DNA of 64,000 nucleotides from the UHGV virus genome UHGV-0390448; one strand, 5' to 3'. The notes below the pieces were generated by a model, which made no database searches, had not been told where the DNA came from, and worked only from the letters and a program-made list of their open reading frames with translations. The position numbers and the translations under genes are program-made. Numbering within the stretch: the stretch's first letter is position 1; each line of letters opens with the position of its first letter. Of this stretch, positions 8,611 through 52,815 are shown piece by piece. This stretch comes from a virus.

Positions 8611-8649
8611 TTAGTAGTTAAAGCCCCGGCATGACCGGGGCAAAAGCTA

Positions 8650-9576
8650 TTAACTAATAATCCAGTCGGTTGCTGCTACATCTTCTGGCTGCAAATCAAT
8701 CGCACAGATCTTACCGTCGCGAATGGTGCGCCAGTTTTTCCGTGAGCCTCTTTCGGGCCATACCCAGACACTTTCAGGCCAGGATGCTCGACGGCATACG
8801 GTTGCATACCCTGTTTTAATCTTCTCTCTGGCGGTATGCAACGACAGGTTTGCCTTTGGACTTTCAGGCACAGGATGGTGAATGGCCTGAAATAGCCCCA
8901 TCCTGGGATGATACCAGCGTTTGTTACGTGGTTCTGCCTCCGACATAACCTGCTTAAAGGCTTTCCGGAAGGGGGCCAGGGCCACAATGGAACGTCGCGC
9001 AAGCAAACCGTCGGGAGTTAAAAACTCATGCGTATCAGTGGGTATCCGGTAAGCGTTGACCAGGTTACGGCATTTGGCTTCAGTCAGGCCACATTTCGCC
9101 GCCAACTGGCGGTAGCCAATGTAGCCTTCCGGAATATTGCCTTTCTTGATCTGCTCGACGGTTTCAGCGACTTTGGACACTTGTGCCGATACTTCGGCTA
9201 CCTGGGCATTAACAGCGTTGATCCGGCGTTCATGCTCAAGATGCATTTGCGCCATTTCAGCCAGGATTTCGGCTTTTGATTTTAACGGTCCCCTGGCATT
9301 CTCCAGTTCGCGCCAGCGGTCCACCAGCCGGGCGGTGAATTCCGGAGAGAGCTGTGCGACGACAATGATACTATCGCGCTTGCCTTGCTCGCCTTCGAAG
9401 ACGTAATAGCTCGCCGGGCGGCCTGCGGTGGGCTTTTCCTCAATTTGAGGAAAAGATATTACGCCCCGTTCCGCCAGGTGTTCAATGGTGCGTTTAACGT
9501 TATCAGGGCGCTTACCTACCAGTTCCGCGATCTCAATGCTGGTCATTGTCGCTTTTTGAGAGATGGACAGATTCAT
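8650..9576 (-). CDS. Phage regulatory protein, Rha family (antirepressor-like), copy 1, intact
   Basis: N-terminal MTSIEIAELVGKRPDNVKRTIE matches the Rha/Bro-N pattern; paralog of 50112-51016. Confidence 0.7.
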   Translation of the reverse strand: MNLSISQKATMTSIEIAELVGKRPDNVKRTIEHLAERGVISFPQIEEKPTAGRPASYYVFEGEQGKRDSIIVVAQLSPEFTARLVDRWRELENARGPLKSKAEILAEMAQMHLEHERRINAVNAQVAEVSAQVSKVAETVEQIKKGNIPEGYIGYRQLAAKCGLTEAKCRNLVNAYRIPTDTHEFLTPDGLLARRSIVALAPFRKAFKQVMSEAEPRNKRWYHPRMGLFQAIHHPVPESPKANLSLHTAREKIKTGYATVCRRASWPESVWVWPERGSRKNWRTIRDGKICAIDLQPEDVAATDWIIS

Positions 9577-9791
9577 CAGTGCACCTCCACGCAGTTCATC
9601 GGCAGATTCCAGTAATTGAGGATCTCCATCGCATCAAGAGTGAAGCGAGCAGCAAAAATGCAGGGTTCTTCGGGAAGGTATGAGCGCGCTTCTGCTTCGG
9701 TAGCTGCCATGACGCAGATGTAGAGGTGTTTTTGGCAGGAATAGAAACGCCAGATAAATTCAGAATGAGTTGGGGTAGGGATAGTAGCCAT
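9576..9791 (-). CDS. Ash-like small protein, paralog of 51016-51240
   Basis: 71 aa; shares EFIWRF and AATE-EAR motifs with the second copy; start-stop overlap with the Rha gene. Confidence 0.45.
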   Translation of the reverse strand: MATIPTPTHSEFIWRFYSCQKHLYICVMAATEAEARSYLPEEPCIFAARFTLDAMEILNYWNLPMNCVEVH

Positions 9792-10594
9792 ATTGGCAGC
9801 CTCCTTTGACTAAGTTAAGGAGCTACCGCGTGAGGTTCCAATCTCAATGGCGGTAGCACTGACTGGGTTGGAACTACCGGCGTCAAAGGGAACCGGCCTG
9901 CCTTTCGGCAGCCCAGCCAGCACTACCATTGATCTCTGAGCTAAACGCTAAGTATGGCTGTGCGATGGCATGACACAAAAAAAGACGCTTTCGGCGTCTG
10001 TGTCGCCTTTGACATTATCCGGGGTTCCAATCCCGGCACCCGTTTTTCTAAGGTGCCGTAGAAATATACCCCACGATAATGCCTGGGCGCAACAGTCTGT
10101 ATTTTTATGCTTTGGAGGATTTCTTCCGGGCTTGTTTGCAAGCGTAGGCCATTGCTTTAGCTTTCACTTCATCCAGCTTTCCGGTGATCACTTCTTTTCC
10201 GAGAGTGACAAACCAGTCATAGCAACCGCCAGTGATGTTCTGGATTTGAAAGTTGAGGTAGCGAACGGTCATTTTGACACCCCCAGCGCGAGTAAAGAAT
10301 GCAGATTATCGCGTGAGTGGCGGACAATGAGTGATGGGGAAAGACAGTAGTTGTTCATAGTGTAGTGACTCCTTGCTTTCGGAGCCGCCATCGACTGTTC
10401 CACGGTCTGGTGGCGGCGCAATAAAGGCTGGAACACCGTGAGTCAACGGGGGCTTTTCAGCCACCTATATTGCACCGCCATTGGTATGGCGGCGGCAATC
10501 ATACGAAAAACCAAACGGTTTGTCTCAAAAAGTTGACCGGTGTACCAATCGGTTGTGAATGTACAACGGTGAATTTCACAATTCAACTTAAAAT

Positions 10595-10601
10595 GTTAGA
10601 A
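10595..10601. promoter_or_regulatory. gttagaa half-site of the recurrent operator motif
   Basis: atgttagaaaactaattt; at the 3' end of the ref-like gene. Confidence 0.35.
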
Positions 10602-10603
10602 AA

Positions 10604-11221
10604 CTAATTTATTAATTCAGTCACCATCTGATACAACGTCATTTCATCAGCATTGTGCCGCCTGAAATCTGCTTTGCCGCCTATTTTTCCATCAGCATGA
10701 ACAGGGACCAACCAGGGGTATTGCTCGCGTATCTCTGCTGGCGCTGCGTGTTGATGGTGCCATTTACACAAAGGGAGAACGTATTTATGCGCGTTCTCTG
10801 CCGTTCTCCCGAAGATGTGGTGCAGGGATACCACAGGGCTATGCTGTCCGTGCATATGGCAGGCAATGCAGGGGAGGGCACCGATGGCAGTTTGTATCCG
10901 GCGCTCATCTGCTGTGAGTGTTCTGCCTTTCAGGCCGCGTGACGCGCGAGTTTTTTTGACAGGAGCAGAAGCGGCCTTCTCTTTTCTTCGCTGTTCATAT
11001 TGCTTCGCTTTTTCAATTTTCTTTTGCCGATATTCAGGCGATGCGGCTTTTTCTCGCGCACGCTGCTGCTGGCGTTGAGCTTGCTGAAGACGTTTTGCCC
11101 TTTGTTCCTCCCGCCATTTCGGATCAGCCAGTTTTTGCAGGGCTTTTTGTGTCTGTTTCTCCCAATAGCTTTGCTTCATAGAAATACCCGGTTTGTCTAC
11201 ATCGCCGCTATGGTTGATCAA
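10604..11221 (-). CDS. ref: Ref-like HNH endonuclease (recombination enhancement function)
   Basis: Highly basic, low-complexity N-terminal half plus C-terminal CIACHMHGQH...CKWHHQH HNH-like motif, as in P1 Ref. Start may be the internal ATG at 11179 rather than the TTG at 11221. Confidence 0.6.
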   Translation of the reverse strand: MINHSGDVDKPGISMKQSYWEKQTQKALQKLADPKWREEQRAKRLQQAQRQQQRAREKAASPEYRQKKIEKAKQYEQRRKEKAASAPVKKTRASRGLKGRTLTADERRIQTAIGALPCIACHMHGQHSPVVSLHHIFGRTAENAHKYVLPLCKWHHQHAAPAEIREQYPWLVPVHADGKIGGKADFRRHNADEMTLYQMVTELIN

Positions 11222-11222
11222 A

Positions 11223-11256
11223 TGTGTTAGAAAATCAAAATTGATTTTCTAACACA
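11223..11256. promoter_or_regulatory. 34-bp palindromic operator (gttagaa-N14-ttctaac) upstream of ref
   Basis: tgtgttagaaaatcaaaattgattttctaacaca, 16-bp perfect arms. Confidence 0.6.
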
Positions 11257-16064: not shown

Positions 16065-16094
16065 TGTTAGAATATTGATTTTAATTTTCTAACA
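16065..16094. promoter_or_regulatory. Operator site gttagaa-N14-ttctaac
   Basis: tgttagaatattgattttaattttctaaca; about 45 bp upstream of gene 16137-17132. Confidence 0.55.
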
Positions 16095-29634: not shown

Positions 29635-29692
29635 AGTACCCTCCGCAATAGGCGAGGGTACTTTACATTAAAATGCACTGTCTAAAAAGATT

Positions 29693-29699
29693 GTTAGAA
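29693..29699. promoter_or_regulatory. gttagaa half-site at the 3' end of cre
   Basis: ttgttagaaaattaattcagg. Confidence 0.3.
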
Positions 29700-29706
29700 A
29701 ATTAAT

Positions 29707-30735
29707 TCAGGAATCCATCAGGCGACTATTTGCACCAACGGATGCCCCGCTACGGCGCAAATATCGCATAAGTGTTTCGGGCTTTTTCCATGTGCCTTCC
29801 TGCATGATCTCGACCATTGACACCTGTTTCTCAGCCATATCAATTGCCGCACCAACACGCGCACTATGACCTGTCCACGTCCGGTATCTTCCTTTGTTCG
29901 GCGTGGCATCTCGCTTATTCAGCAATCCCCAGGCATCGCTGAATATTTTCTCCATCGCAGGAGCAGTAAGAGGCGTTGTCGTGATTCTGGCTTTATTACT
30001 GCGGTGTATTGGCGGGAATAGCACCGCGTCCGGATGTTCACGAAGTCCGGACACCTCCAGCCAGTCGTTTAGCACGGCGGTAGTGCAACGAGAAAGCACC
30101 TTATCAAGTCCGGCGGCGGTCGTGATGGTCTTCGTGTGTGAAATATGCAGCGTTACAGTGTCACCTGTTTGGTCCAGATCTCCGACACGGATGCGCGAGA
30201 TTTCTGACATACGCATCAGGGTATTGTATGCCACGAAGAGAAACGCCCGATTGCGCAGGTCCACCAGCCGCTCGGAACGGGACAGCAATACGTCGAGCAA
30301 TTTCAGATCATCCCACCGCAACGGTATAGCCTGGCCTGTACGCTCGCCTTTTTCCGTTGCCGCTTCGCGCCGGATGCGCCGCATGGCCAGAGATACACTT
30401 TTATCGTCTGACAGCGGCGGTAGGCCGCATTGCGAAAGCAGCATGTTAAGCATGGCATAGTGCTTATCAATGGTGGTCGAAGCCAGATCGGCTTCATGCA
30501 ACTGGAGAAGATACTCGCGGGCCATTTCCGGCGTAATCGGGAACCAGGGGCGCTGGCGCGAATTACACCACCGCGCCCAGGAATGAAAGACCAGACGGAG
30601 ATCACGAAGTGTATTTGGGGCATAAGCTCCCTGGTCGTTCATGAACTGCATAAAGTTTTTTGCAGCTTCCTGGTATTCGGTGCCAATATCGCGCAGAAAA
30701 CCGCCAGAACCGCCGGAGATAACTAGTTCACCCAT
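29707..30735 (-). CDS. cre: Cre-like tyrosine site-specific recombinase
   Basis: 342 aa; blocks WFPITPEMAREYLLQL, AYNTLMRMSEISRIRVGDL and WTGHSARVGAAIDMA align to P1 Cre (WFPAEPEDVRDYLLYL, AYNTLLRIAEIARIRVKDI, WSGHSARVGAARDMA). Confidence 0.85.
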   Translation of the reverse strand: MGELVISGGSGGFLRDIGTEYQEAAKNFMQFMNDQGAYAPNTLRDLRLVFHSWARWCNSRQRPWFPITPEMAREYLLQLHEADLASTTIDKHYAMLNMLLSQCGLPPLSDDKSVSLAMRRIRREAATEKGERTGQAIPLRWDDLKLLDVLLSRSERLVDLRNRAFLFVAYNTLMRMSEISRIRVGDLDQTGDTVTLHISHTKTITTAAGLDKVLSRCTTAVLNDWLEVSGLREHPDAVLFPPIHRSNKARITTTPLTAPAMEKIFSDAWGLLNKRDATPNKGRYRTWTGHSARVGAAIDMAEKQVSMVEIMQEGTWKKPETLMRYLRRSGASVGANSRLMDS

Positions 30736-35530: not shown

Positions 35531-35558
35531 TATTAGAAAATTAATATTAACTTACTAA
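35531..35558. promoter_or_regulatory. Degenerate operator site attagaa-N14-tactaac
   Basis: Same 7-14-7 spacing; upstream of 35061-35453. Confidence 0.4.
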
Positions 35559-35560
35559 CA

Positions 35561-36970: not shown

Positions 36971-37046
36971 TGGTGGCCCCTACCGGACTTGAACCGGTGA
37001 CCGTGCGATTATGAGTCGCCCGCTCTAACCACTGAGCTAAAGGGCC
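36971..37046 (-). tRNA. tRNA with CAU anticodon, most similar to tRNA-Ile2 (lysidine type); Met not excluded
   Basis: Reverse complement GGCCCTTTAGCTCAGTGGTTAGAGCGGGCGACTCATAATCGC...GGTTCAAGTCCGGTAGGGGCCACCA resembles E. coli ileX; CCA encoded. Confidence 0.8.
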
Positions 37047-37063
37047 AGATTACTGTTAATTAC

Positions 37064-37192
37064 GCTTACGCTTTTTGCCAGAACCGCGTAAGGCTTTTGC
37101 CGCTTGCTCTACCCCGTATGCAACCACCAGCAGAAACAATAATGTCCACTCCGGGTTTTTATCGGCAAACGCCCAAAAATCCATCACTTGCA
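37064..37192 (-). CDS. Small membrane peptide (about 42 aa) inside the tRNA operon, candidate
   Basis: aaggtgg RBS 7 nt before ATG; predicted MDFWAFADKNPEWTLLFLLVVAYGVEQAAKALRGSGKKRKRN. Below the ORF-track cutoff. Confidence 0.4.
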
Positions 37193-37474
37193 GCCACCTT
37201 TTAAGACAAACGCCATTGCTGTTAGGTTGCGGTGCCGGGTGCCTCCCGGTGACGTTAACCAGTTAACAATTAACGCCGGATCACTTATGGATTCTCGTTA
37301 CGCCAGTAAAAAGACCACCTTTACTGTTTTAACTGTTCCGCGTGCGCTTAGCCGCATTCACCGCAATGGTAAGAGCATTTGGCTGACTGGGCGGCGATGA
37401 CGCCTGTACGCATTTGGTGATCCGGTTCTGCTTCCGGCATTCGCTTAATTAGCCAAATACTCTTAACGTTGCGA

Positions 37475-37561
37475 TGGCGGAGAGTAATGGAATCGAACCA
37501 TCATCGCTTGGGCGACGGGACGGTTTTCAAGACCGCTTGAGCACCATGCTCCCTACTCTCC
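37475..37561 (-). tRNA. Atypical type-II tRNA, Ser-like (UGA anticodon)
   Basis: Anticodon arm GCGGT-CTTGAAA-ACCGT as in E. coli serT, long variable arm, T-loop TTCGATT, CCA encoded; D-arm non-canonical. Confidence 0.5.
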
Positions 37562-37719
37562 AGTGATTGTGGTGGTCGGTGCTGATCTCCGACTGCGCCT
37601 CTTTTTTTCATAGCCCATAAGGCCGGTCAGTGCGCTTGATGACTGAGGCATCGATATTTACTACGCCGCCTCGTTGCCATAGGGCGGACTTGCGCGCCAG
37701 CAACGCGCATTCACCACAA

Positions 37720-37793
37720 CGGTAAGGGTACTTCGTAGGGATTCGAACCCTCTGCCAAGCACGGCGATCTCCGACGTCGCAAAATACCCTTAC
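37720..37793 (-). other. tRNA-like fragment: perfect T-arm inside a 10-bp inverted repeat, no acceptor pairing or CCA
   Basis: GGTAAGGGTA...AGGG-TTCGAAT-CCCT...TACCCTTACC on the minus strand; cannot be folded into a canonical cloverleaf. Confidence 0.3.
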
Positions 37794-37802
37794 CTGTTGT
37801 GT

Positions 37803-37878
37803 TGGTGCCGGTTAACGGACTCGAACCGCTGACATCCTGCTTACAAGGCAGGCGCTCTACCAACTGAGCTAAACCGGC
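37803..37878 (-). tRNA. tRNA-Thr (UGU)
   Basis: GCCGGTTTAGCTCAGTTGGTAGAGCGCCTGCCTTGTAAGCAGG...GGTTCGAGTCCGTTAACCGGCACCA; canonical cloverleaf. Confidence 0.85.
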
Positions 37879-37882
37879 AATT

Positions 37883-37969
37883 TGGTGGGGAGTGATGGAG
37901 TCGAACCATCCGAGTCGCAATGACAGTAGATTTACAGTCTACCCCGCTACCCCTACGGACTAACTCCCC
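37883..37969 (-). tRNA. Type-II tRNA, Tyr-like (GUA anticodon), atypical D-arm
   Basis: Anticodon arm GTAGA-CTGTAAA-TCTAC, long variable arm, T-arm GATGG-TTCGACT-CCATC, CCA encoded. Confidence 0.55.
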
Positions 37970-37974
37970 TAAAT

Positions 37975-38051
37975 TGGCGATGGTGGGTGGATTCGAACCA
38001 CCGACCGACAGCTTAGAAGGCTGCTGCTCTATCCTACTGAGCTACACCATC
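37975..38051 (-). tRNA. tRNA-Arg (UCU)
   Basis: GATGGTGTAGCTCAGTAGGATAGAGCAGCAGCCTTCTAAGCTG...GGTTCGAATCCACCCACCATCGCCA; resembles E. coli argU. Confidence 0.8.
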
Positions 38052-39366
38052 ACTTGCCGGGTACGTCTCCGGCGAGGGCTTCCACCTCCGTATGCTTTTC
38101 GGCGCACCGCGCCCTGGCTGCAATTCGGTAACAGGGGATACACAACCCTGGCTTCCAGCGTGATTAGCGCCTTCAGCATGACGGGATATACCCGTTACAA
38201 GACATTATTCCAGAAAGCCATTAACCAATGGCTGTTACGCGGGAAGGACGTAACAGGTAAGGGCGCTGACCAGAAAGACCTGACCCTTCTCATTCATCTG
38301 GTTAATCACACCGGCGCCCTTGCCTGTTATGCCTCCCCGTTCCCTAATACACAGACGGGGACACTCTGCGGTCGATTTTTTGACGGGGGACGACTCATAC
38401 CCCGTGGCGTCAGGCTTCTTAGGCCGCTACCATCATCAGATCATCGTTTGCATTTACTTTAATGGTCGGGTTCTAAACCGCCGCAAAGTCGCTAACCATG
38501 ACGAAAACACTGAAAAAACACCCACCCGAAGGTGGGCAAATATCCCACTCGCGGTATTGCCACTTAGGCGTATGGTCAACCTGGCAACTCGGTGTCCTCA
38601 ACGGGGAAGGAATAACCCCGCCATACTTACCGCCGCGCCTGTCGCGGTTATCGCTACGTATCAACATAAAAGCCGACTGCCTGAGCAAGATTCACTTTCA
38701 AAGGCCCGCAGAAAGGAATCCATAGTCGGCTTTTATCTTGAAGCGGCTCTCTCTCCGCCCGTCACCGTCCTATCCCGGTTGTCGCGTTTGCCACGCCAGC
38801 CGTAACGAGGTTTAAAGTCTTTTCACGTTTTCATCACTCGACTGCCGTCTATGGCTGTTCGTTGCAGCGGGGGTGCCTCCCCCTGGGGATATCCCCGGCC
38901 TTACCCCCATTCTTTCAAAACACAATGCAAGGCCACATCCGCATAGGTGCATTACCGCAACGTTAAGGAGACTCAGAGTCAGCAAAATAAGAGGAAAACC
39001 CAACTCTGCGCCTCCTTAACGTTGAGGATGTGCACTGATGATGACCCGATGCAGCCTGGCCCACTTAACATACTCACTGCCAGATCATCATCAATGAACA
39101 CCTTAAAAAGACCTTCCGTGGCTCAAGTCACTGTCGTTTACTCCGTAAAATGCTCTCGCTGAAACCACTTTACGCACTAAACCTGCCGGGCATGTATTTG
39201 CACGGTGCCGGAGCTTTCCCTTACCTTAAAATTTACTTTCTAACACTTAAGTTTGTTTGATGCTGGTGGGGGAAGACAATGAAGTGACTATCAAACCCGC
39301 AAGCGACATGGGAAGCTCCCCACCAGCACGAAAAATTCTATGTTAAGTTAATTCCATAATCAACAT
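38052..39366 (-). other. About 1.3-kb ORF-free, inverted-repeat-rich region between the tRNA cluster and an operator site; candidate transcribed leader or structured ncRNA
   Basis: Only short, overlapping, low-complexity ORFs in all frames; long-range inverted repeats, e.g. acgttaaggag/ctccttaacgt (about 38959-39022), tgatgatga/tcatcatca (about 39036-39095), aaaagccgact/agtcggctttt (about 38670-38733). Confidence 0.25.
39238..39244. promoter_or_regulatory. ttctaac half-site
   Basis: tttactttctaacacttaag. Confidence 0.3.
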
Positions 39367-39394
39367 GTTAGAAAGATAATTTTAGTTTTCTAAC
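39367..39394. promoter_or_regulatory. Operator site gttagaa-N14-ttctaac
   Basis: atgttagaaagataattttagttttctaacac; between the 3' end of 39398-40606 and the ORF-free region; positioned to control minus-strand transcription into the tRNA cluster. Confidence 0.55.
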
Positions 39395-39397
39395 ACA

Positions 39398-40606: not shown

Positions 40607-40632
40607 GTTTGTTCCCTTTCTTGAAATTAGTT

Positions 40633-40639
40633 TTCTAAC
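40633..40639. promoter_or_regulatory. ttctaac half-site in the promoter region of 39398-40606
   Basis: Minus-strand reading atgttagaaaactaattt, same as the sites at 10595 and 31090. Confidence 0.4.
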
Positions 40640-40682
40640 ATATTTTATTAGTATGCAATTTCAATAAAAAGACTCAGGCAAC

Positions 40683-42605: not shown

Positions 42606-45600
42606 TTAAGCCGCATCGGCGATTATTTTACGCAATTCATCTACCGAGTAACGCGTAGATACCATCCACGCCGGACGGTCAAAGTCCACATCCGCGACCG
42701 GATTCACTTCAAAATTCCAGAAACGCCCGCCAATCTTCTTAATCGCGTCTTTGGCGTTCCGTATTGTCGAGGAACCTGGTTGGTCGGCAATGAGATAAAC
42801 CGCGCCAACGTCCTCGCTGACGCTCCACCAGCGCCCGCGAACACGCGCCTTAGCGCGAATAGGCTTATCATTAACCACAATGATATAGTCATCATTCGCC
42901 GCTTCATCAGCTCTGGCTTCAGCCTCTGCCGCCTGCTCTTCTCTTTTGCTTTCAGCCTGTTCAAGCCTTTCCGCGATCTCTGATTCGGTGGCCCCGCCGT
43001 TTTTCAGCGATACAAAGTCTTGCCACGTTGCTGATTTGAGCGCATCCGGCAACTCATTCACATAGTCACCGTCTTTCAACTCACGGGCGCGGCGGGTAGC
43101 CATTTCTACCAGGCGATTAACAGAAACAGCATCAGCAAAATCGTCCTTACTAATGTGTTTTTCATCAAATGCATTGATGACAGCCCCCACCTTAATCCAC
43201 TGTGCTGCCGGTGATTCCAGGGGGTTATCAGCCTGGACAATGGCGAGTTTCGCTCCATCTACCCCATTATTCGCCAACTGTTCCAGTGCCGCCCATCCAT
43301 CTGCATCACTGAGTGATTTATATTGCTCAAACAATGCATCGCGCCAGGCCACCAGCGCAGAACGTGTTTTTTCGATCTTCGTCTTAATTTTCGCGATCTT
43401 GACCTGATTAAACATCCGTTCAATATCATCGATATTGCTAAAGGCTTTCATCCTGCCCTTGAATAAACGGTATGCCAGCACGGTCCTCCAGAATGATTCC
43501 AGACCTTCTCCGGACGGTTTGCGGAACAAGCTAAGAATATCTTCAGAAGTGACTTTATTAAGCGAACGACCTGACAGACCACGCCCAGCCATCCAGTTTT
43601 CGAACTCCTGGGCAACATCATCCATCGTTGCCTGTGCGCCCCATGCCTGCATTCCCTGGATGTAATCATACCCATACAATGCCTGGAGGAATCCCTCACC
43701 GTCCACGATATTCAGCGGGTTATCACTGGCTTGTATTTTTGCCACTTCACGCTTCAGCGCCTCATCGTTGCCATCTGGATATATCCATCGTTCAGGTGCT
43801 ATATCCGATGCTCGCCCGATTTTTTGGCCTATCACGCCATCATAGGCCGATGACAGCGCGATCTGACCATCATCTGTGCGATATGCCCAGTATTTAATAG
43901 CTGACCCACCGCCCCATGCATTACCAGGTTTACCAGCAATAACATTCATTACCCCATTGCGAATAGCATCATAGAACTGATCGCGAGTAAGTATTGTTGA
44001 TAGCTGGTGGCACTGAACACCACGCGCAGCCGTTGCGCGCGATTCAGCTACCCCCTCTTCAAAAGTTACCGCTTCAATCACAGAGTCAAACGGCAATGTA
44101 ACGATTGACCCTGGTGATCGAGCGTAACGACTTGCTCTATCCAGCCAGGCGATACGGCAGATGTACTGTGCTTTTTCACCGTCAATTTTTTCCACCCGGA
44201 CAATCGCTGTTGTTTCGCGATCATCAATGACTGCACGGTAATAACTACCTTTATGCAACAGGATATTCTTGTCAGTGCGCATATATTCCTGTGGGTTCTG
44301 AATAACATCGATACTGATATCCAGCACACCAGACTTAATAGCGCGCTCCACATCACCACGAGAGCGTTTCATTATGGTATCCGCGTCTTTTGCCCTGGTG
44401 ATCGCAAACCGCAGCACCCGCGCACGTTTTCTGTAGCTACTCAACTGCTCAAGCGCGTATTTTTGCCCATTCCTGTTCGTGCCCGCTTTTATCAGGTCGT
44501 CAAGATTGCGCTGGTAATACTCTATCTGTTCCATCGCGCTTTTCAGTTCTGTCTCCATCATGCCGATATCTTTTCCAGCGGCGTTTGCCGCTTTCAGGTA
44601 GATATCGAGAGCATTGTTGGCCTCGCGCTGTGCTTTCAGTTTCAGACGTTCTTCACGCTCTTGCGCCTGGCGAGCCATGATTGCGCGGCGTTCTTCCGGG
44701 TTTGCCGCCAGCATAATGGCGCGTTCATCAGCATCATCCGCATCACCATTGGCGATCTCTGACATGTCGGAGGTCATCACCATCTTGATCCAGTCTTTCT
44801 TACGTTTCAGCGTATCCAGACGGAAGTCGTCGAATGTGCCTTTGCCACAATAGTAGTGAACATTGACCTTCTCTTGCGGTGAACCTACGCGCGCACCGCG
44901 CCCATTTCGTTGGTCGATACTGGCTGGTGTCCAGGGTAGTGTCAGGTGGTGGATATCGGTTGTCCCGATATGCAGGTTAATACCTACTTCAGCCTTCTTG
45001 TTACAGATAATGATGCGCGTGCGCCCTTCGTTATAGTCGGCGGCAATGCCTTCCATACCCTCAAGGCCAGCATCATTTTTAGCTGAGAGATAATCCTCAT
45101 ATTGGGCAAGTTTGCTGTAGTAGGTTTCCCATGCCCCTTCTTTGTATTCACCGTTTTTATTCGGAGTAGGTTCAGTCGGCTTATTCACCTTCTTCAGCTT
45201 GATGCCGCCAGCCTGGCTAACGGTCGTCGCATTGATAATGCCTATCTCCTGCTCCGGCATTTGCAGTGCACTGGCGATAATACGGCGCAGCTTCTGGTGC
45301 TGGGCTTTTTCATCAATGAAGACAATTTGTTTACCGTTCTTCAGACCTTCACGAAGGTTTTCGATCAGCGCGGCATACTTCGGCGGGATGGGGTGTGATA
45401 CCTGCTGCAGATCAATCCCGGCGGCAGCAATGGCCTTCAGTATTTCAGCTTCCAGTTCAATGCTGGCACGTATTTCAACATGCGCCGGATGTTCACTAAA
45501 GGTGGTCTTCACTACCTTACTGGTGCGCGTACTAACCAGCCCACCAGCGCCGTCTTCTTCGGCCTCGTCTGCATCATCTGCCACTTTACCGCCAGCTACT

Positions 45601-48600
45601 TTTGGCAGGGCATCAGCAATAGCTTTTACCTTGTCTGCAAGCTCAACGGGGAACTGGAATGTAATCGCACTGGCATACAGATCCGGATCTATAGCAACCT
45701 TATCCATGTCGCGGATGATGGAGAAGATGAAATCATCCGGTTTTTCGTTTGTGATATGCCCGTTTTCATCAACCGTCAGCGCATCTTTACTACTTAACTC
45801 CTGTGCACGCTTACGAAGCTCTTCATAAGCAGCCTCCTGCTCCCCTGTCATCGGGATCTGCAAGGTATTCTCGACAATATCAGGGATTTTAACCGTCGCC
45901 CCGACGTCCGCAGCAGTCTTCAGAGTAGTCCAGCGATGGAAAATACCACGCAGGCCATCAAGGTTCTGGAAGCCAACCAGCCCCTGCTTCTCTTCCACTT
46001 CCCCGGAAATTTTCTGGACCTGAACTGTGGCTGTTTTGCCAAACACACGAACGAAATCATCAGGCGTAATGATGCCCATGCGCATCCACTCTTCCTGCGG
46101 AATGACAGTAGACAGCATGTTGAAGGCATCAATCGGACTGTTCACCAGCGGAGTTGCCGTCAGCATGACTACACCACGCCCGTTGTTGCGTTTCATCATG
46201 TACGCAGCTTTTACAGCCATGTCGCGGGCCATCTTGGATACTGCCGGGTTAGGCAAATATGCCAGTTGTCCCGCTTCACGCCCGGCATTAAAGGAGTTGC
46301 GGTAGTTATGCCCCTCGTCGGCAATCACGCTATCGAAGTTCATATCCTCAAAGTACGGGATATTCTGCTTCTTCGTTGTACCGGTATTCGCGGCCTGATC
46401 CTTAATCTTGTTCTTCTTCTGCGCATCACGGTGTTTACCAGACGCCAGGTCAAGACGCCCCATTTCCACAGCATTAAAGACAGCTTGCTGTGAGTTCTCC
46501 TCGATGGTTTTTTCTCGTAGCGGGATAGACGCGAATTGTTCTTTTGTCATGATGACCGTTCGCCAATTTGACGACGGGATCATGTTCATGCGCTGAACGA
46601 TAACGGCGCTGGCGGACTCTTTCACAACATTTCTGGTAAGAGGCTGCCCGTTACTGTCGAGGCGGGGTTCGCCATTTTCATCAAGCACCGGCGCGGTCAG
46701 AATATTGCCGTCTTCATCACGAACTTCATCCAGACCGATAAACATCATATTGGCGAAGGCATCAGCACTGTAGAAGCTCTGTGCCTCGTGATACCAGTTC
46801 TGATAAACCGCCTTCGGAACAACAATACACGTGCGTTTAGTGCGGCCTGTTTCGAAGTTATACGCCTCAAGCGCAAGCGCGGTCGTGGTTTTACCCAGCC
46901 CGGTACCAAATCCCATGATGCCGCGCCCATCTTCTGACAAGCGCCGAACTTCTTCATTCTGATAAGTCAGAGGAATGCGCTTTCCACTAATCCCTTCCAG
47001 GCCAAGCGGTGCGTTAGAGTGCGTGAACGGAATGAAGCCATTGAATGCGTCGTTATACTCGCGGGCTATCTGATCCGCCTGCGGGTGGGTGCGTAACCAG
47101 TCGTTAAAACTAACTTCCAGTTGAGCAATTTTATCCAGGTACTCGTTAGCGTTCTGCCCACGCGGTTTAACACCGTTCAGGTAGTTTTCTAACTGGTTCA
47201 GGAAGCCGTCTTTATTGTTGGCCTTCTTGAACTCATTCCCGTTTTTGCCGTTTACGGTTCGTAGCTGATAGCCGGTAAATACCCCGTCCTTACCTTCGTA
47301 ATCGTCCGGAGATACCAGAATGCCATCGACGACCTTCAGATCAGGTTCAGTGTACTTAAACTCGTCATAGCCCTGCTCTGCCAGGAACTCTTTTATCAAG
47401 CGGCGATCCAGCCAGCGGGCGTTCAGATTAACGGTGACTTTATTTAGTGGCGTGAAAATGCGTTTCTCTTCGATTTTCGCCAACTGACGCTCAAAGTTCG
47501 ATTTCTGCTCACCTGTTGACGCATCACGCCAGCCCATCAGCAATGCTGTTTTGGTTGCAATATCGCCGCTGGTGGCGCGGTCCATCGGCAGCAGGCAGCC
47601 ATACCCATCAATAGCGATATCATCAAATTTCGCCAGGTATTCAAGGGCCGCGTCGTCGTCCTCTGGCAGTTCACCAGCAAACGCCTCACGAAAGTCGCCC
47701 AGCGTTATAGGATTAAGGGCTACATCACTGAAAAGATGTGCTATCACTTGTTCCGGACGTGTAAAGTCAATACCGGCAGCACCATCCGTTACATCAAGTC
47801 GCCCTGCCAGAAGGTCAGAAGTGGAACCATCCTGTTTCACGTTGCCAGTGAACGTCATCCAGTTTTTAGCTCCAGCTTCTGCAAGCCCATTCAGCTTAAT
47901 CGCGTGCGGTGGTCCATACTTCGCAACTTCTGCTGCCGCCAGGCGGGATGCATCTGCCAGTTTGTCATCAACGTTCACCCCCAGGTTACGCAAATCAAGT
48001 GCCTTGTTGATCAACTGCCCTATCAACGCACCGCGCATAACGCGCTCCCTATCTTTTTCTCGCTGTTTGCCAGCAAAGCGAATCATTGCTGCCACTTCAT
48101 CACTGACAACCGATGGATAGTCGGACGCGATCGCCGATATCTGGTCCCATGACAAAGCCAGAATCCCGTTTGTTGACTGGAACGCGATCTGCAGATCGCC
48201 AAACGTCGAAACACCATATCGACTTACATCAAGCGCGGAGGATTTGGTTGTCGTGTCCTTAACCCATTTCAGGCCATCAAACTCATGCCAGATACCGCCT
48301 ACAAGGCGCTTATCCCCTACTTTTGCGCCCTGCCATGCCTGGGTAGTTACTCCGAGCAAATCCCAATTAATACGGCTTTCAAAGCGGCGTGATAGAGCGG
48401 TTTTCATCGACTCATTGGATACACGGCCATCCTTTTTCACCACCAGGGTATTGCGGAAGCTGGTGCGTTCCATGTCGCCATAAACAAATCGCTTCCCTTC
48501 GGTTGTAAACCATTTCCCTTTGAGGAAGGAATCCCAAAGGACGTTTGCCGATTTGAGCGTTGCATCATCCGTGTCGGGGATCATCTCCAGGAAGGTTTCC

Positions 48601-49594: not shown

Positions 49595-50080
49595 ATGGCA
49601 AACATTGAACCTCGCTGGCTTATTGAGGCCCGTAAAAATATTGGAGTCACCGAAATAAAAGGAGCGAAACACAATCCTGAGATCGTTCAGTTCTGGCGGG
49701 ATATTAAGCGCAGCGGAATTAAAGACGACGAAACGCCGTGGTGCGCTGCATTTGTTGGTGCAATGCTGGAACGTGTAGGTATCCGCTCAACAAGATTTGA
49801 GTCGGCAAAATCCTATCTGGATTGGGGCGAGAAATTAGATACACCGGCATACGGATGTATCGTTGTATTTACTCGCGCAGGCGGTGGGCATGTAGGCTTT
49901 GTTGTCGGACGCCGCGCCAATGGCGATCTGCTTGTCTTGGGTGGGAACCAGGGGGATGCTGTTAATATTCGCGCATTCCCAACATCAAGAGTGTCTGGCT
50001 ATCGCTGGCCTGCTGGCGAACCACGCAATACAGCTCTGTTACCAGTCGGAGACGCAGCAACCTCAACTAATGAGGCATAA
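49595..50080 (+). CDS. CHAP/NlpC-P60-like cysteine peptidase (TIGR02594-like), putative cell-wall hydrolase
   Basis: Conserved Cys (PWCAAFV) and His (GGGHVGFVVG) spacing; lone plus-strand gene. Confidence 0.5.
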   Translation: MANIEPRWLIEARKNIGVTEIKGAKHNPEIVQFWRDIKRSGIKDDETPWCAAFVGAMLERVGIRSTRFESAKSYLDWGEKLDTPAYGCIVVFTRAGGGHVGFVVGRRANGDLLVLGGNQGDAVNIRAFPTSRVSGYRWPAGEPRNTALLPVGDAATSTNEA

Positions 50081-50103
50081 AAAAGCCCCGGCCTGGCCGG
50101 GGC
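50081..50103 (-). terminator. GC-rich hairpin with U-run on the minus strand
   Basis: gccccggcc-t-ggccggggc preceded by aaaa on the plus strand. Confidence 0.45.
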
Positions 50104-50111
50104 ATCACACT

Positions 50112-51016
50112 TCAAGTTACGATCCAATCATTACCGACTGCATCCGCCGTCGATAAATCGACTTCCCGGATCTGGTATCCATTAACACAAAACCATCCAG
50201 TAGTAGAGCTATTATCAGGCCAGACCCATACACCAACACTCCATGCTTTACGGCGGCACACTTCAGCCTGTCCTTCCCTGATTTTTTTTACCGCCTGCAT
50301 GATGTCCATCACTCGCCTCCCCAACCGATCACCTGGAATTGTCCCATCCTTGGGTGATACCAGCGTTTTCCTCGGTGTTCAGCCTCCGACATCATCAGGT
50401 TAAAGGCATTCATGAAGGGAGATAAGGCCACAATAGTACGACGCGACAATACCCCCTCTGGCGTCAAAAACTCATGCGTATCAGTGGGTATCCGGTAAGC
50501 GTTGACCAGGTTGCGGCATTTGGCTTCAGTCAGGCCGCATTTTGCCGCCAACTGGCGGTAGCCAATGTAGCCTTCCGGAATATTGCCTTTCTTGATCTGC
50601 TCGACGGTTTCAGCAACCTGGCTAACCTTTGACTCAACAACATGAAGCCGCTTTTGCTGCTGAACTGCATTTGCAGCCATTGCAGCGATCATCTCTATTT
50701 CGGTCAACGGCTGGCGTACTTGTTCTTCCAGTTCGCGCCAGCGGTCCACCAGCCGGGCGGTGAATTCGGGAGAGAGCTGCGCGACGACGATAATGCTATC
50801 GCGCTTGCCTTGCTCGCCTTCGAAGACGTAAGCCTCAACACTACGTCGTAGTCCTAAGTTATTGATTTTTTCGAAAACCTCAATTTGAGGACGAACAATA
50901 ACGCCACCTTTGGCTAATGTCTCAATAGTGCGTTTCACATTGTCATGACGTTTTCCCACCAGCTCCGCAATCTCAATGCTGGTCATTGATGGTTTTTCGA
51001 GAATGCAGATATCCAT
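50112..51016 (-). pseudogene. Rha-family regulatory gene, copy 2, split into two overlapping ORFs by a frameshift
   Basis: ORFs 50309-51016 (235 aa) and 50112-50324 (70 aa) together align to the intact 308-aa copy at 8650-9576; frame switch falls just after the shared WYHPRMG-FQ motif, near 50325-50345. Confidence 0.5.
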
Positions 51017-51240
51017 CAGTGAGCCTCCGCAATGCAGGGATTAGTAATATTGCGATACCAGGGGTTAGTGTTTGGTTGTGGGGAAGTAGAGAAACGACCA
51101 GTGAGCACGCCATACTGATCAGGGATCAGAGAACGGGCTTCTTTTTCAGTTGCGGCAATTGCGAAGTGATCGCAGTGTTTTTGCAGGGAGTGAAAACGCC
51201 AGATGAATTCTGGACGTGAGCAAGGATTGGCATTAACCAT
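51016..51240 (-). CDS. Ash-like small protein, copy 2
   Basis: 74 aa; paralog of 9576-9791. Confidence 0.45.
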   Translation of the reverse strand: MVNANPCSRPEFIWRFHSLQKHCDHFAIAATEKEARSLIPDQYGVLTGRFSTSPQPNTNPWYRNITNPCIAEAH

Positions 51241-51570
51241 AGTTACGGCCTCACTAACAGGTTTAACAACCTGCTACCCGCTGCTAAACAGGTGGCAGGA
51301 CGTGACGGGGTTAGCAGACTGGCGTTAGTGAAACCAGCAGGCCGAAGCCTCCCCATCACGCCCCACCATAATTTGGGCGTAACGCGGTTTTACGGACACA
51401 AAAATACCGCAATATCGGATATCTGCGGTTGTCCGCACTAACATTCAGGCTGCTAAACCCGGTCGCAGAATTTGCTACGACGGCATGAATATAAGCCTGA
51501 ACATTAGAAAGATCAACAGAATTTTTATCAGATGCTGTTTTTTAGTGACGATATAAATCATACATTCTTG

Positions 51571-51598
51571 ATTAGAAACATCAATTTAATTTTCTAAC
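51571..51598. promoter_or_regulatory. Operator site attagaa-N14-ttctaac upstream of the Ash-Rha module
   Basis: gattagaaacatcaatttaattttctaacat; about 330 bp upstream of the Ash start. Confidence 0.5.
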
Positions 51599-51656
51599 AT
51601 ACATTTTCGAGCGATGAAATTCCCGCCGCACGGTTATTGTACAGTCAATCGCAACA

Positions 51657-52710: not shown

Positions 52711-52789
52711 GGCAGTCGCTACCGGAGCAGTGACCGCGATCCTACTCGATCACGTGCCGTCGGATCAACAGTGTATAAAAACACACTGT

Positions 52790-52796
52790 GTTAGAA
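52790..52796. promoter_or_regulatory. gttagaa half-site upstream of the Rep-like gene
   Basis: ctgtgttagaaaattaagc. Confidence 0.4.
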
Positions 52797-52815
52797 AATT
52801 AAGCTAGCTTTTAGC

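What the first reader, a model, noticed from the sequence alone, without database searches (positions are those of the whole stretch)
8650..9791. Two divergent Ash-Rha (immI-like) modules in one element, the second frameshifted
Modules at 8650-9791 and 50112-51240 encode paralogous Ash-like and Rha-family proteins with conserved central regions but divergent termini. Copy 2 of the Rha gene is split into 235-aa and 70-aa ORFs that jointly align to the intact copy; the frame change falls just after the conserved WYHPRMG-FQ motif (about 50325-50345). Copy 2 has an upstream operator site; I did not find one near copy 1. This could reflect a decaying duplicate, a programmed frameshift, or a sequencing error.
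Basis: seen in the sequence. Interest (0 to 1): 0.5.

Follow-up and report, generated by a model that had tools for sequence, protein, structure and literature searches.

The report
Two immI operons; split antirepressor is native
This D6-like plasmid prophage carries two complete antisense-RNA-controlled "anti-immunity" operons, and the apparent frameshift in the second is a conserved boundary between an antirepressor-like gene and a separate 65-residue gene, not damage or a sequencing error.

Summary
The window is about 90% identical to phage D6, a P1 relative. Both modules are full P1-type immI operons. Each has a C1-operator-like site, upstream a1/b1 target sites, a C4 antisense RNA, a2/b2 target sites, an icd-like gene and a Rha-type "ant" gene. 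The small ORFs are Icd-like, not Ash. The two C4 RNAs have different recognition loops, and each loop matches only its own targets. Copy 1 does have an operator-like site, at 10594-10609.

In copy 2 the 235-aa gene ends in TGATG, which starts a 65-aa ORF preceded by GGGAGG. This layout is annotated in D6 (orf18 and orf17). It holds in 22 of 24 sequences (this window, D6 and 22 IMG/VR loci) at 89-98% nucleotide identity. In the two exceptions the TGATG junction is unchanged. Nearly all of the closest protein clusters are 235 aa long. There is no slippery heptamer.

The 65-aa protein is homologous to the last 65 residues of copy-1 Ant. Its predicted fold resembles Tad2/DUF2829. In other phage-plasmids it is a stand-alone gene directly downstream of C4.

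The duplication is already described for D6-like plasmids. The link between Tad2-like proteins and C4 control is a modest new lead.

The parts
10594..10609 (-). C1-operator-like site (D6-type motif AATTWRTTTTCTAACA) upstream of the module-1 transcription unit. It overlaps the stop codon of the ref-like gene.
   Evidence: Perfect match. The motif occurs 20 times with up to 3 mismatches against 2.5 expected. It sits at the same position in D6 and in plasmid L026.
9978..10056 (-). isrK-like RNA element ending in a terminator-like hairpin. It carries the upstream (a1/b1-type) target copies for C4-1: TTGGAAC at 10030-10024 and GTCAAAGG at 10013-10006.
   Evidence: Rfam RF01394, 62.7 bits against a gathering score of 50. 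Exact complements of both C4-1 loops. Terminator-like site at 9999-9983.
9846..9933 (-). C4 antisense RNA, copy 1 (C4-1)
   Evidence: Rfam RF01695, 77.1 bits against a gathering score of 45, full-length model match.
9803..9841 (-). icd-1 leader with C4-1 targets a2 (TTGGAAC, 9841-9835) and b2 (GTCAAAGG, 9810-9803, running into the AAGGAGG Shine-Dalgarno sequence)
   Evidence: Exact 7- and 8-nt complements of the C4-1 loops. C4-2 has no match here. Sequence.
9576..9791 (-). icd-like gene 1 (71 aa). Its stop overlaps the ant-1 start (TGATG).
   Evidence: NCBIfam NF033153, 49.4 bits. 56% identical to P1 Icd. phrog_1426.
8650..9576 (-). ant-1, a Rha-type antirepressor-like gene (308 aa): N-terminal winged-helix/Rha domain, coiled coil, conserved central domain, proline-rich linker, fused Tad2-like C-terminal domain (8653-8847)
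   Evidence: PF09669, 30.6 bits. phrog_63 'anti-repressor Ant', E 2e-62. The C-terminal domain aligns to the copy-2 65-aa ORF.
8623..8641 (-). GC-rich hairpin (GCCCCGG-TCATG-CCGGGGC) closing module 1. It is homologous to the module-2 terminator.
   Evidence: Sequence. Conserved block in the alignment of the two copies.
51584..51599 (+). C1-operator-like site overlapping the -35 of the distal promoter-like site of module 2
   Evidence: One mismatch to the motif. Perfect in D6 at the same place. Promoter-like sites at 51584-51557 and 51516-51488. P1 has the same arrangement of Oc4 and P2c4.
51436..51494 (-). a1/b1 upstream target element for C4-2: TTAGCAG at 51456-51450 and GTTAGTG at 51442-51436
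   Evidence: Rfam RF03163, 53.9 bits against a gathering score of 46.7. Exact complements.
51288..51373 (-). C4 antisense RNA, copy 2 (C4-2)
   Evidence: Rfam RF01695, 70 bits. This region is about 90% identical to P1 and P7 c4-icd.
51251..51287 (-). icd-2 leader with C4-2 targets a2 (TTAGCAG, 51287-51281) and b2 (GTTAGTGA, 51258-51251, running into the GAGG Shine-Dalgarno sequence)
   Evidence: Exact complements of the C4-2 loops. C4-1 shows no complement of its recognition loops here; its only 7-nt match comes from its 3' stem strand, positions 76-82.
51016..51240 (-). icd-like gene 2 (74 aa). Its stop overlaps the ant-2 start (TGATG).
   Evidence: NF033153, 40 bits. dN/dS 0.04.
50309..51016 (-). 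ant-2, a Rha-type antirepressor-like gene (235 aa) equivalent to D6 orf18. It ends ...WYHPRMGQFQVIGWGGE*.
   Evidence: PF09669, 36.7 bits. D6 annotation. 235 aa in 22 of 24 sequences and in 117 of the 120 closest clusters. dN/dS 0.23.
50112..50309 (-). 65-aa Tad2/DUF2829-like gene, equivalent to D6 orf17. Its ATG shares the A of the ant-2 TGA, and GGGAGG lies 6 nt upstream.
   Evidence: phrog_7385, full length, E 1e-46. Conserved junction. Fold searches. Pfam PF11195 below threshold.
50085..50103 (-). Intrinsic-terminator-like hairpin (8 G-C pairs followed by TTTTTT) closing module 2 after the 65-aa gene

Best explanation
The element is a phage-D6-like, P1-family plasmid prophage with two complete and mutually orthogonal immI-type operons.

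Layout of each operon: a C1-operator-like site, upstream a1/b1 target copies, a C4 antisense RNA, a2/b2 targets (b2 runs into the icd Shine-Dalgarno sequence), an icd-like leader gene, a Rha-type antirepressor-like gene and a terminator.

Inferred mechanism, by analogy with P1. In the lysogen C1 shuts the promoter. C4 RNA processed from residual transcripts pairs with a2/b2 and blocks icd translation. Because each stop overlaps the next start (TGATG), blocking icd also blocks everything downstream. On derepression the genes are translated in series. Each C4 recognises only its own leader, so the two operons are controlled independently.

The 'frameshift' in module 2 is the native gene boundary. 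The C-terminal 65-residue domain that is fused to Ant in module 1 is made in module 2 as a separate, translationally coupled polypeptide. This is a gene fission or fusion polymorphism of one domain.

That domain has a Tad2/DUF2829-like fold. It is an autonomous unit, because in other phage-plasmids it is the only gene placed directly behind C4.

What is shown: the anatomy, its conservation, the RNA complementarities, the homologies and the fold resemblance. What is inferred: that transcription and translation behave as in P1, that the Rha-type proteins act as antirepressors, and what the 65-aa protein does. My best guess for the 65-aa protein is that it partners Ant-2, or that it binds a small molecule or immune signal as an early-expressed function.
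For: - Identity of the element: about 90% nucleotide identity to phage D6 over both modules. D6 has the same gene sets, including orf18 (235 aa) and orf17 (65 aa).
- RNA parts: two C4 RNAs, a c4-a1b1 element and an isrK-like element pass Rfam gathering scores. The same elements are found in D6.
- Orthogonality: each C4 has exact 7-8 nt complements of both loops upstream and downstream in its own module. Neither C4's loops match the other module's leader or upstream target element.
- icd: both small ORFs pass NF033153.
- Operators: the motif is enriched 8-fold (20 sites against 2.5 expected) and is present upstream of both modules. It is conserved at the same positions in D6 and in plasmids.
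- Split conserved: the 74/235/65-aa layout with the GGGAGG-N6-ATG and TGATG junction holds in 22 of 24 sequences at 89-98% identity. In the two exceptions (a 5-aa in-frame deletion in ant, a 1-bp deletion inside the small ORF) the junction is unchanged. 117 of the 120 closest Ant-2 clusters are 235 aa long, some of them seen on roughly 60 to 195 contigs each. PGAP calls the 65-aa gene and does not flag the Rha gene as a pseudogene.
- No slippery heptamer.
- Selection: dN/dS is 0.04 for icd and 0.23 for ant2.
- Real frameshifts look different. In copy 1 of other genomes they are one-base changes, for example a C5 run expanded to C6.
- Domain homology: gapless alignment at 37% identity.
- Stand-alone homologues P0005 and P0006 lie 45-53 nt downstream of a C4 RNA, with a b2-type complement beside their ribosome-binding site.
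Against: - dN/dS of the 65-aa ORF is only about 0.5-0.6, based on few substitutions. Purifying selection on it is therefore not demonstrated within the D6 group.
- The family is tiny. There are 7 hits in 1.84 billion representatives, three of them truncated variants.
- PF11195 is never reached at Pfam's gathering score (best 23.9 bits against 25). A small family profile does not find Tad2 sequences in the PDB. Foldseek E-values are weak (0.0035 to 0.3) and the models are only moderately confident (pLDDT 81 and 67).
- The D6-type Ant proteins show no significant similarity to P1 Ant1 or KilA. 'Antirepressor' is therefore a positional inference.
- No expression data were available.
- A terminator-like hairpin inside the isrK-like element lies between the module-1 operator and C4-1. 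No strong promoter was found near that operator.
Confidence: 0.82

Rival explanations
1. Old, fixed pseudogenisation. Module 2 is a decaying duplicate whose ant gene lost its C-terminal domain through an ancient indel. The 65-aa ORF is then a non-functional remnant that has not yet picked up stop codons.
For: dN/dS of the small ORF is about 0.5-0.6 with few substitutions. Truncated or frameshifted variants of the small ORF exist (P0002, P0003, P0007; L024). An A8 run lies inside the ORF.
Against: The junction carries a Shine-Dalgarno sequence, an ATG and a stop/start overlap, the same design as the icd/ant junction, and this is invariant across all 24 sequences. ant2 and icd2 are under purifying selection. 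The ORF lies inside the transcription unit, ahead of a conserved terminator. Diverged homologues (32-40% identical) keep the same 11 invariant residues as free-standing, C4-controlled genes. Sporadic frameshifts are seen in copy 1 rather than copy 2.
Confidence: 0.08
2. Programmed -1 ribosomal frameshift or transcriptional slippage. It would join the 235-aa and 65/70-aa frames into a roughly 300-aa Ant-2 in a fraction of translation events, giving two isoforms as P1 does with Ant1 and Ant2.
For: The second frame is open for 69 nt upstream of the ant-2 stop. The fused architecture exists in copy 1. P1 makes two Ant isoforms.
Against: There is no X XXY YYZ heptamer and no homopolymer run in the overlap. 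The GGAGG sits at the right distance for initiation at the ATG, not upstream of a slip site. The two P1 isoforms come from in-frame starts, not from frameshifting.
Confidence: 0.04
3. A sequencing or assembly error in this window created the split.
For: None beyond the general possibility.
Against: The same layout occurs in phage D6, in 21 further IMG/VR loci, in plasmids from many laboratories and in hundreds of contigs. The two copies differ by 16 nt in the linker, not by one base.
Confidence: 0.01
4. The split is functional, but the 65-aa protein has no small-molecule role. It would be only the detachable oligomerisation or partner-binding domain of the antirepressor, and the Tad2 resemblance would reflect a shared small alpha/beta fold.
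For: It is fused to Ant in copy 1 and in phrog_63 members. It is translationally coupled to Ant-2. Tad2 itself is an oligomerisation-prone fold, a homotetramer (bioRxiv 10.1101/2023.05.01.538930). Sequence-level support for Tad2 membership is below threshold.
Against: In L028 and L029 it stands alone behind C4 with no Rha-type gene in the same unit. That argues for an activity of its own.
Confidence: 0.35

Closest known systems
Phage P1/P7 immI operon (Oc4/Op51, P51a/b, a1 b1, c4, a2 b2, icd, ant1/ant2)
   Same: Same order of parts. The operator overlaps the distal promoter's -35. There are two tandem promoter-like sites (module 2). The C4 RNA fits the same covariance model. 7- and 8-nt a/b targets sit on both sides of c4, with b2 at the icd ribosome-binding site. 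The icd homologue is translationally coupled to the next gene. Module 2's c4-icd region is about 90% identical to P1 and P7.
   Different: There are two such operons in one genome, with different C4 specificities. The effector is a Rha/Roi-type protein with no detectable similarity to P1 Ant1/Ant2 or KilA. An extra Tad2-like domain or gene is present. The operator consensus differs: the P1 17-mer is absent and AATTWRTTTTCTAACA is present. Module 1 uses an isrK-like element in place of the Rfam a1b1 element.
Phage D6 orf19-orf18-orf17 and orf83-orf82, and D6-like plasmid prophages such as pYU39_89
   Same: Orthologous at about 90% nucleotide identity. Gene lengths are the same or nearly so, the 235+65 split is the same, and so are the C4, a1b1 and isrK elements. 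PMC6799933 already notes a second c4-icd region in a D6-like plasmid.
   Different: The N-terminal (DNA-binding) part of both ant genes is strongly diverged from D6, at 45-68% nucleotide identity. D6 annotates orf17 only as hypothetical. I could not read the D6 genome paper.
Gifsy-1 isrK-orf45-anrP locus of Salmonella (PMC4825925)
   Same: An isrK-family RNA with a leaky terminator lies upstream of a short leader ORF. That ORF is coupled by an overlapping stop/start to an antirepressor-like gene. The isrK sequence pairs with downstream RNA.
   Different: Here a bona fide C4 RNA lies between the isrK-like element and the leader ORF, and the leader ORF is icd-like. Whether Gifsy-1 'orf45' hides a C4-like RNA was not tested.
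Tad2 / DUF2829 (PF11195) phage sponge proteins, and AcrIIA7
   Same: Small alpha1 + five-strand antiparallel sheet with a short helix before the last strand. Tad2 proteins are the top fold-search hits for two family members. The family has an RRxxW motif after helix 1 and a DW motif at the C-terminus. It is phage-encoded and placed where it would be expressed early.
   Different: At 65 aa it is shorter than Tad2 (about 89 aa); the window protein lacks the alpha2 loop. It falls below Pfam's gathering score. The Asn after the conserved Trp (SPO1 Tad2 W25-N26) is Ser or Pro here, judged by eye. It is fused or coupled to a Rha-type regulator and is under C4 antisense control. No binding data exist.

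Membership tests
P1-type immI operon | C4 antisense RNA gene within the operon leader | tested here: met
   RF01695 at 77.1 and 70 bits against a gathering score of 45, full-length matches in both modules.
P1-type immI operon | Two short target sites (a, b) complementary to the C4 loops, present upstream (a1/b1) and downstream (a2/b2) of c4, with b2 at the ribosome-binding site of the first gene | tested here: met
   Exact 7-8 nt complements for both modules, specific to the cognate C4. Layout as annotated in P1.
P1-type immI operon | icd homologue as first gene, translationally coupled to the antirepressor gene | tested here: met
   NF033153 above its cut-off for both. 39-56% identical to P1 Icd. 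TGATG overlaps.
P1-type immI operon | Antirepressor homologous to P1 Ant1/Ant2 | tested here: not met
   BLASTP of window Ant-1 against P1 Ant1 gives only a 67-residue coiled-coil stretch at E 0.015. Against KilA it finds nothing. The proteins are Rha/Roi-type instead.
P1-type immI operon | C1-repressor operator controlling the operon promoter | tested here: inconclusive
   The P1 operator 17-mer is absent. A D6-type motif is 8-fold enriched and lies upstream of both modules, overlapping the -35 in module 2. Binding by C1 was not tested.
Rha family regulators (Pfam PF09669) | Score at or above Pfam's gathering threshold | tested here: met
   30.6 bits (Ant-1) and 36.7 bits (Ant-2) against 29.9.
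Tad2 / DUF2829 (Pfam PF11195) | Score at or above Pfam's gathering threshold (25 bits) | tested here: not met
   Best family member 23.9 bits (P0005). Window ORF 15.9 bits. Copy-1 C-terminal domain 11.1 bits. The alignments are full-length, and PF11195 is the top or second hit in every member.
Tad2 / DUF2829 (Pfam PF11195) | Tad2 fold (alpha1 + antiparallel beta1-beta5 with a short helix before beta5) | tested here: met
Tad2 / DUF2829 (Pfam PF11195) | Ligand-contacting residues (SPO1 Tad2 W25, N26, W73, D79) and sequestration of an immune signal | not tested
   The residues are named in bioRxiv 10.1101/2023.05.01.538930. I made no residue-level structural superposition. Binding needs an experiment.
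Programmed -1 ribosomal frameshift site | Slippery heptamer X XXY YYZ in the zero frame within the region where both frames are open | tested here: not met
   None in the 69-nt overlap, and no homopolymer run of 5 or more there.
isrK RNA (Rfam RF01394) | Score at or above the gathering threshold | tested here: met
   62.7 bits against 50 at 9978-10056(-). 59.1 bits at the same place in D6.

The most novel reading that the evidence does not exclude
The 65-residue protein, and the C-terminal domain of Ant-1, would be a miniature Tad2-type sponge for a host immune signalling molecule. P1-family and other phage-plasmids would have placed it under C4 antisense/immI control in three interchangeable forms: fused to the antirepressor, translationally coupled behind it, or alone. 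immI modules would then deliver an anti-defence function together with anti-immunity at the moment of derepression or superinfection.
Probability: 0.25. Interest if true: 0.6.

Novelty: new member of a known kind. Interest (0 to 1): 0.3.

Why it matters
The main practical result is negative. The 'frameshifted' gene should not be annotated as a pseudogene or corrected as an error. It is a conserved two-gene arrangement.

Three points are of some biological interest.
1. A single prophage keeps two antisense-RNA immunity circuits that do not cross-talk. This is a natural example of orthogonal C4/target pairs, the feature that distinguishes P1 from P7 immunity.
2. The same 65-residue domain is found fused, split and solitary behind C4 RNAs. 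This marks it as a real effector of these circuits.
3. Its Tad2-like fold suggests a testable link between prophage anti-immunity switches and counter-defence against signalling-based host immunity.

The isrK-like element holding the a1/b1 sites also hints that the Salmonella IsrK system and the P1 C4 system are versions of one mechanism.

Tried and rejected
- P1 C1 operator consensus ATTGCTCTAATAAATTT: no match with up to 3 mismatches. The repeat TTGATNTTTCTAAT seen by eye upstream of copy 2 was not enriched (5 against 2.5 expected) and was dropped in favour of AATTWRTTTTCTAACA.
- RNA.duplexfold energies for C4/target pairs were uninformative, because long spurious duplexes formed. They were replaced by exact-complement mapping.
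- Word-indexed protein search with the 65-aa ORF gave only 3 hits. The exhaustive HMM search gave 7. The family is genuinely small.
- phmmer and a family profile against PDB sequences did not find Tad2.
- The genome-contig scan with the domain alignment returned one irrelevant locus.
- The D6 genome paper (Gilcrease and Casjens 2018) is not held. I could not check what its authors say about orf17/orf18 or the second immI region.
- The idea that a fused copy-2-type Ant exists: the 306-aa hits turned out to be recombinants of a copy-2 N-terminal half with a copy-1 C-terminal half.
- Gene conversion between the two copies: within-genome identity of the central block (96-98% in the window, 91-95% in D6) is barely higher than cross-genome identity (90-95%). 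This is suggestive only.
Full report
**1. What is in the sequence**

- Module 1, on the minus strand: a 71-aa ORF at 9576-9791 and a 308-aa ORF at 8650-9576.
- Module 2, on the minus strand: a 74-aa ORF at 51016-51240, a 235-aa ORF at 50309-51016, and a small ORF at 50112-50324. The small ORF is 70 aa from TTG and 65 aa from the ATG at 50309.

A nucleotide alignment of the two modules and a sliding identity profile show a mosaic. Two central blocks are 91-98% identical (roughly 9388-9330 and 9148-9030 in copy 1). The rest is 45-60% identical, which is close to unalignable. The last 65 residues of the 308-aa protein align without gaps to the 65-aa ORF at 37% identity. The factual core of the finding is therefore correct.

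**2. What the element is**

Megablast places both modules in Escherichia phage D6, a P1-family plasmid prophage, at about 90% identity. About 100 D6-like plasmids in PLSDB carry both modules.

D6 itself is annotated with orf19 (icd-like), orf18 ("putative anti-repressor, similar to HK97 Roi", 235 aa) and orf17 (hypothetical, 65 aa) in one place. It has orf83 (icd-like) and orf82 (anti-repressor, 313 aa) in the other. A published analysis of a D6-like Salmonella plasmid already remarks on a second region homologous to c4 and icd (PMC6799933).

**3. Both modules are complete immI-type operons**

- Rfam at gathering thresholds finds a C4 antisense RNA in each module: 9846-9933 at 77 bits and 51288-51373 at 70 bits.
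- It finds the c4-a1b1 target element upstream of the second (51442-51494).
- It finds an isrK-family RNA upstream of the first (9978-10056). The same four elements are found in D6.
- The small ORFs pass NCBIfam's Icd-like model. They share the EFIWRF...AATE.EARS core with P1 Icd. They are not Ash-like.
- The "ash family protein" that PGAP annotates in relatives is a 39-aa ORF lying over the C4-1 RNA gene. It is probably a spurious call.

Mapping exact complements shows that the C4-1 loops (GTTCCAA, CCTTTGAC) match TTGGAAC and GTCAAAGG twice. One pair is in the icd-1 leader, where the second site runs into the AAGGAGG ribosome-binding site. The other pair is inside the isrK-like element.

The C4-2 loops (CTGCTAA, TCACTAAC) match TTAGCAG and GTTAGTG(A) in the icd-2 leader and in the a1b1 element. 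Neither C4's recognition loops match the other module's leader or upstream target element. The only cross-module matches of 7 nt or more come from stem or inter-loop segments of the C4 RNAs, not from the recognition loops. This is the a1/b1 - c4 - a2/b2 design annotated in P1, present twice with different specificities.

**4. Operators**

The P1 operator 17-mer is absent. A related asymmetric motif, AATTWRTTTTCTAACA, occurs 20 times with up to 3 mismatches, against 2.5 expected. Several sites form inverted pairs in front of genes that are C1-controlled in P1, such as ref.
- One perfect copy lies at 10594-10609(-), at the head of the module-1 transcription unit.
- A one-mismatch copy lies at 51584-51599(+). 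It overlaps the -35 of the distal of two tandem promoter-like sites in front of module 2. P1's Oc4 overlaps P2c4 in the same way.
- Both sites are conserved in D6 and in plasmids.

However, the site is about 660 nt upstream of C4-1. Two small ORFs and a terminator-like hairpin inside the isrK-like element lie between them. Read-through is inferred by analogy with Gifsy-1 isrK (PMC4825925).

**5. The 'frameshift'**

The junction reads GGT TGG GGA GGC GAG TGA TGG, so the ant-2 stop overlaps the ATG of the 65-aa ORF as TGATG. GGGAGG ends 6 nt before that ATG. The icd/ant junctions have the same TGATG design.

Relative to copy 1, the linker is 16 nt shorter and otherwise unalignable. This is not a one-base lesion.

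I examined 24 sequences: this window, D6 and 22 IMG/VR loci, at 89-98% identity. In 22 of them the layout is 74/235/65 aa with an identical junction apart from one or two silent changes. The exceptions are a 5-codon in-frame deletion in ant and a 1-bp deletion inside the small ORF.

Of the 120 closest Ant-2 protein clusters, 117 are 235 aa long, several of them seen on roughly 60 to 195 contigs each. One is 232 aa long. The two 306-aa exceptions are recombinants that join a copy-2 N-terminal half to a copy-1 C-terminal half within the conserved central block. In plasmids PGAP annotates the 235-aa gene as an intact Rha-family regulator and calls the 65-aa gene after it.

The two frames are both open for 69 nt. 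That stretch contains no X XXY YYZ heptamer and no homopolymer run.

Nei-Gojobori estimates of dN/dS are 0.04 for icd-2, 0.23 for ant-2 and about 0.6 for the small ORF. The last value rests on about a dozen substitutions and does not by itself show constraint.

Genuine frameshifts do occur in this gene family, but in copy 1 of other genomes. They look as expected: single-base changes, for example a C5 run expanded to C6, with the flanks aligning at high identity.

**6. The 65-residue domain**

It matches phrog_7385 over its full length (E 1e-46), and it matches the C-terminus of phrog_63 "anti-repressor Ant".

An exhaustive HMM search of 1.84 billion representatives finds only 7 relatives:
- a fused 313-aa Ant;
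- three truncated variants;
- two diverged free-standing proteins, P0005 (96 aa) and P0006 (68 aa), which keep all 11 invariant residues (I, G, CRR, W, W, P, D, DW);
- one marginal hit, an 825-aa protein at E 6e-4.

P0005 and P0006 are encoded on roughly 90-kb contigs, one of which carries ParM-type partition genes. Neither has an adjacent Rha-type gene. In both cases the gene starts 45-53 nt downstream of a C4 RNA that is itself preceded by an a1b1 element. The complement of the C4 b-loop lies next to the gene's ribosome-binding site.

The domain therefore occurs in three arrangements behind C4: fused to Ant, coupled after Ant, and alone. That is hard to reconcile with a dead remnant.

**7. 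Fold**

Every family member hits Pfam PF11195 (Tad2-like, formerly DUF2829) along its full length, but below the 25-bit gathering score. The values range from 23.9 bits (E 6e-5) for P0005 down to 11.1 bits for the copy-1 domain.

An AlphaFold2 model of the window protein (pLDDT 81) has one helix, four strands, a short helix and a last strand. This is the topology described for Tad2, without the alpha2 loop.
- Foldseek against the PDB returns Tad2 structures as the top 12 hits (probability 0.91-0.98, E 0.08-0.3).
- A second model, of P0005 (pLDDT 67), returns Tad2 as the top 18 hits (probability 0.95-1.0, E 0.0035-0.06, 19-26% identity).

A small family profile does not retrieve Tad2 sequences from the PDB. 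I conclude that the domain is very probably a short DUF2829-fold relative. Whether it binds a signalling nucleotide is untested.

**8. How it most likely works**

Shown: the parts list, their conservation and the RNA complementarities.

Inferred from P1 (features, plus my own knowledge of the P1 immI literature):
- C1 represses the promoter.
- C4 is cut out of the transcript and pairs with a2/b2.
- icd translation is blocked, and with it the coupled downstream genes.
- Loss of C1 and C4 control lets Icd, Ant and the small protein be made in series.

With two non-cross-reacting C4 RNAs, the prophage can keep two effectors under separate control.

The Rha-type proteins are called antirepressors only by position. 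They are unrelated to P1 Ant1 and KilA by BLASTP, and they carry a winged-helix DNA-binding N-terminus. That N-terminus is the most variable part between this element and D6.

**9. Verdict**

The duplication and the orf18/orf17 split are already present in the D6 record, and the duplication is noted in the literature. The finding as stated is therefore an ordinary, already-described feature that was misread as a frameshift.

The added value is:
- the demonstration that the split is a conserved fission;
- the orthogonality of the two C4 circuits;
- the operator in front of module 1;
- the equivalence of the isrK-like element with a1/b1;
- the Tad2-like assignment of a domain that recurs behind C4 RNAs.

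Noticed in passing
window 9978-10056 (-): The isrK-family RNA directly upstream of C4-1 contains exact complements of both C4-1 loops, so it takes the place of P1's a1/b1 element. In Gifsy-1, isrK is followed by 'orf45', which is conserved at the nucleotide level but not the protein level and pairs with IsrK, and then by the antirepressor gene anrP. That locus may be the same a1b1-c4-leader-ant design.
   Followed up: partly
L028 3752-4291 and L029 3746-4207: In two other roughly 90-kb phage-plasmid contigs, an a1b1 element and a C4 RNA are followed directly by a free-standing Tad2-like gene (P0005, P0006). There is no icd or ant gene there.
   Followed up: partly
window 9810-9929 (-); L026 2510-2629: The 39-aa ORF that PGAP names 'ash family protein' (WP_001396852) lies almost entirely within the C4-1 RNA gene. 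It is probably a spurious protein call.
   Followed up: partly
window-wide, e.g. 11225-11254, 16065-16094, 29692-29707, 35531-35560, 39366-39395, 40625-40640, 52789-52804: A D6-type operator-like motif, AATTWRTTTTCTAACA, occurs 20 times against 2.5 expected. Several sites are overlapping inverted pairs, for example in front of the ref-like and repL-like genes. The P1 operator 17-mer is absent.
   Followed up: partly
L046, L053, L054, L057, L058, L078 (copy-1 ant in other genomes): Six of about 27 IMG/VR copy-1 ant genes carry single-base frameshifts at three different positions. Four of them share a C5-to-C6 run expansion. So copy 1, not copy 2, shows sporadic disruption, or homopolymer sequencing errors.
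   Followed up: partly
P0122, P0125 (306 aa): Natural recombinant Ant proteins join the copy-2 N-terminal half to the copy-1 C-terminal half, with the crossover inside the near-identical central block. That block acts as a recombination joint between the paralogues.
   Followed up: partly
L080 (phage RCS47 103405-103819 and flanks): The P1-like phage RCS47 has a second region 89% identical to window 9643-10057, which spans the isrK-like element, C4-1 and the 5' part of icd-1. It is unannotated in the record and lies between pacB and an extra 'ant' gene next to c1. Second immI-like modules are therefore not restricted to D6-like elements.
   Followed up: no
window 50282-50289 (-): An A8 run lies inside the 65-aa ORF (codons V-K-K-I). 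Truncated variants of the protein in public data (P0002, P0003, P0007) show that indels do occur in this ORF, but I did not map where they fall.
   Followed up: no
window 36974-38051 (-): A cluster of four tRNA genes.
   Followed up: no
window 42606-49457 (-) and 49595-50080 (+): A 2283-aa DarB-like methyltransferase/helicase ORF, and a TIGR02594 peptidoglycan-hydrolase-like gene convergent with module 2, as in D6 orf15 and orf16.
   Followed up: no
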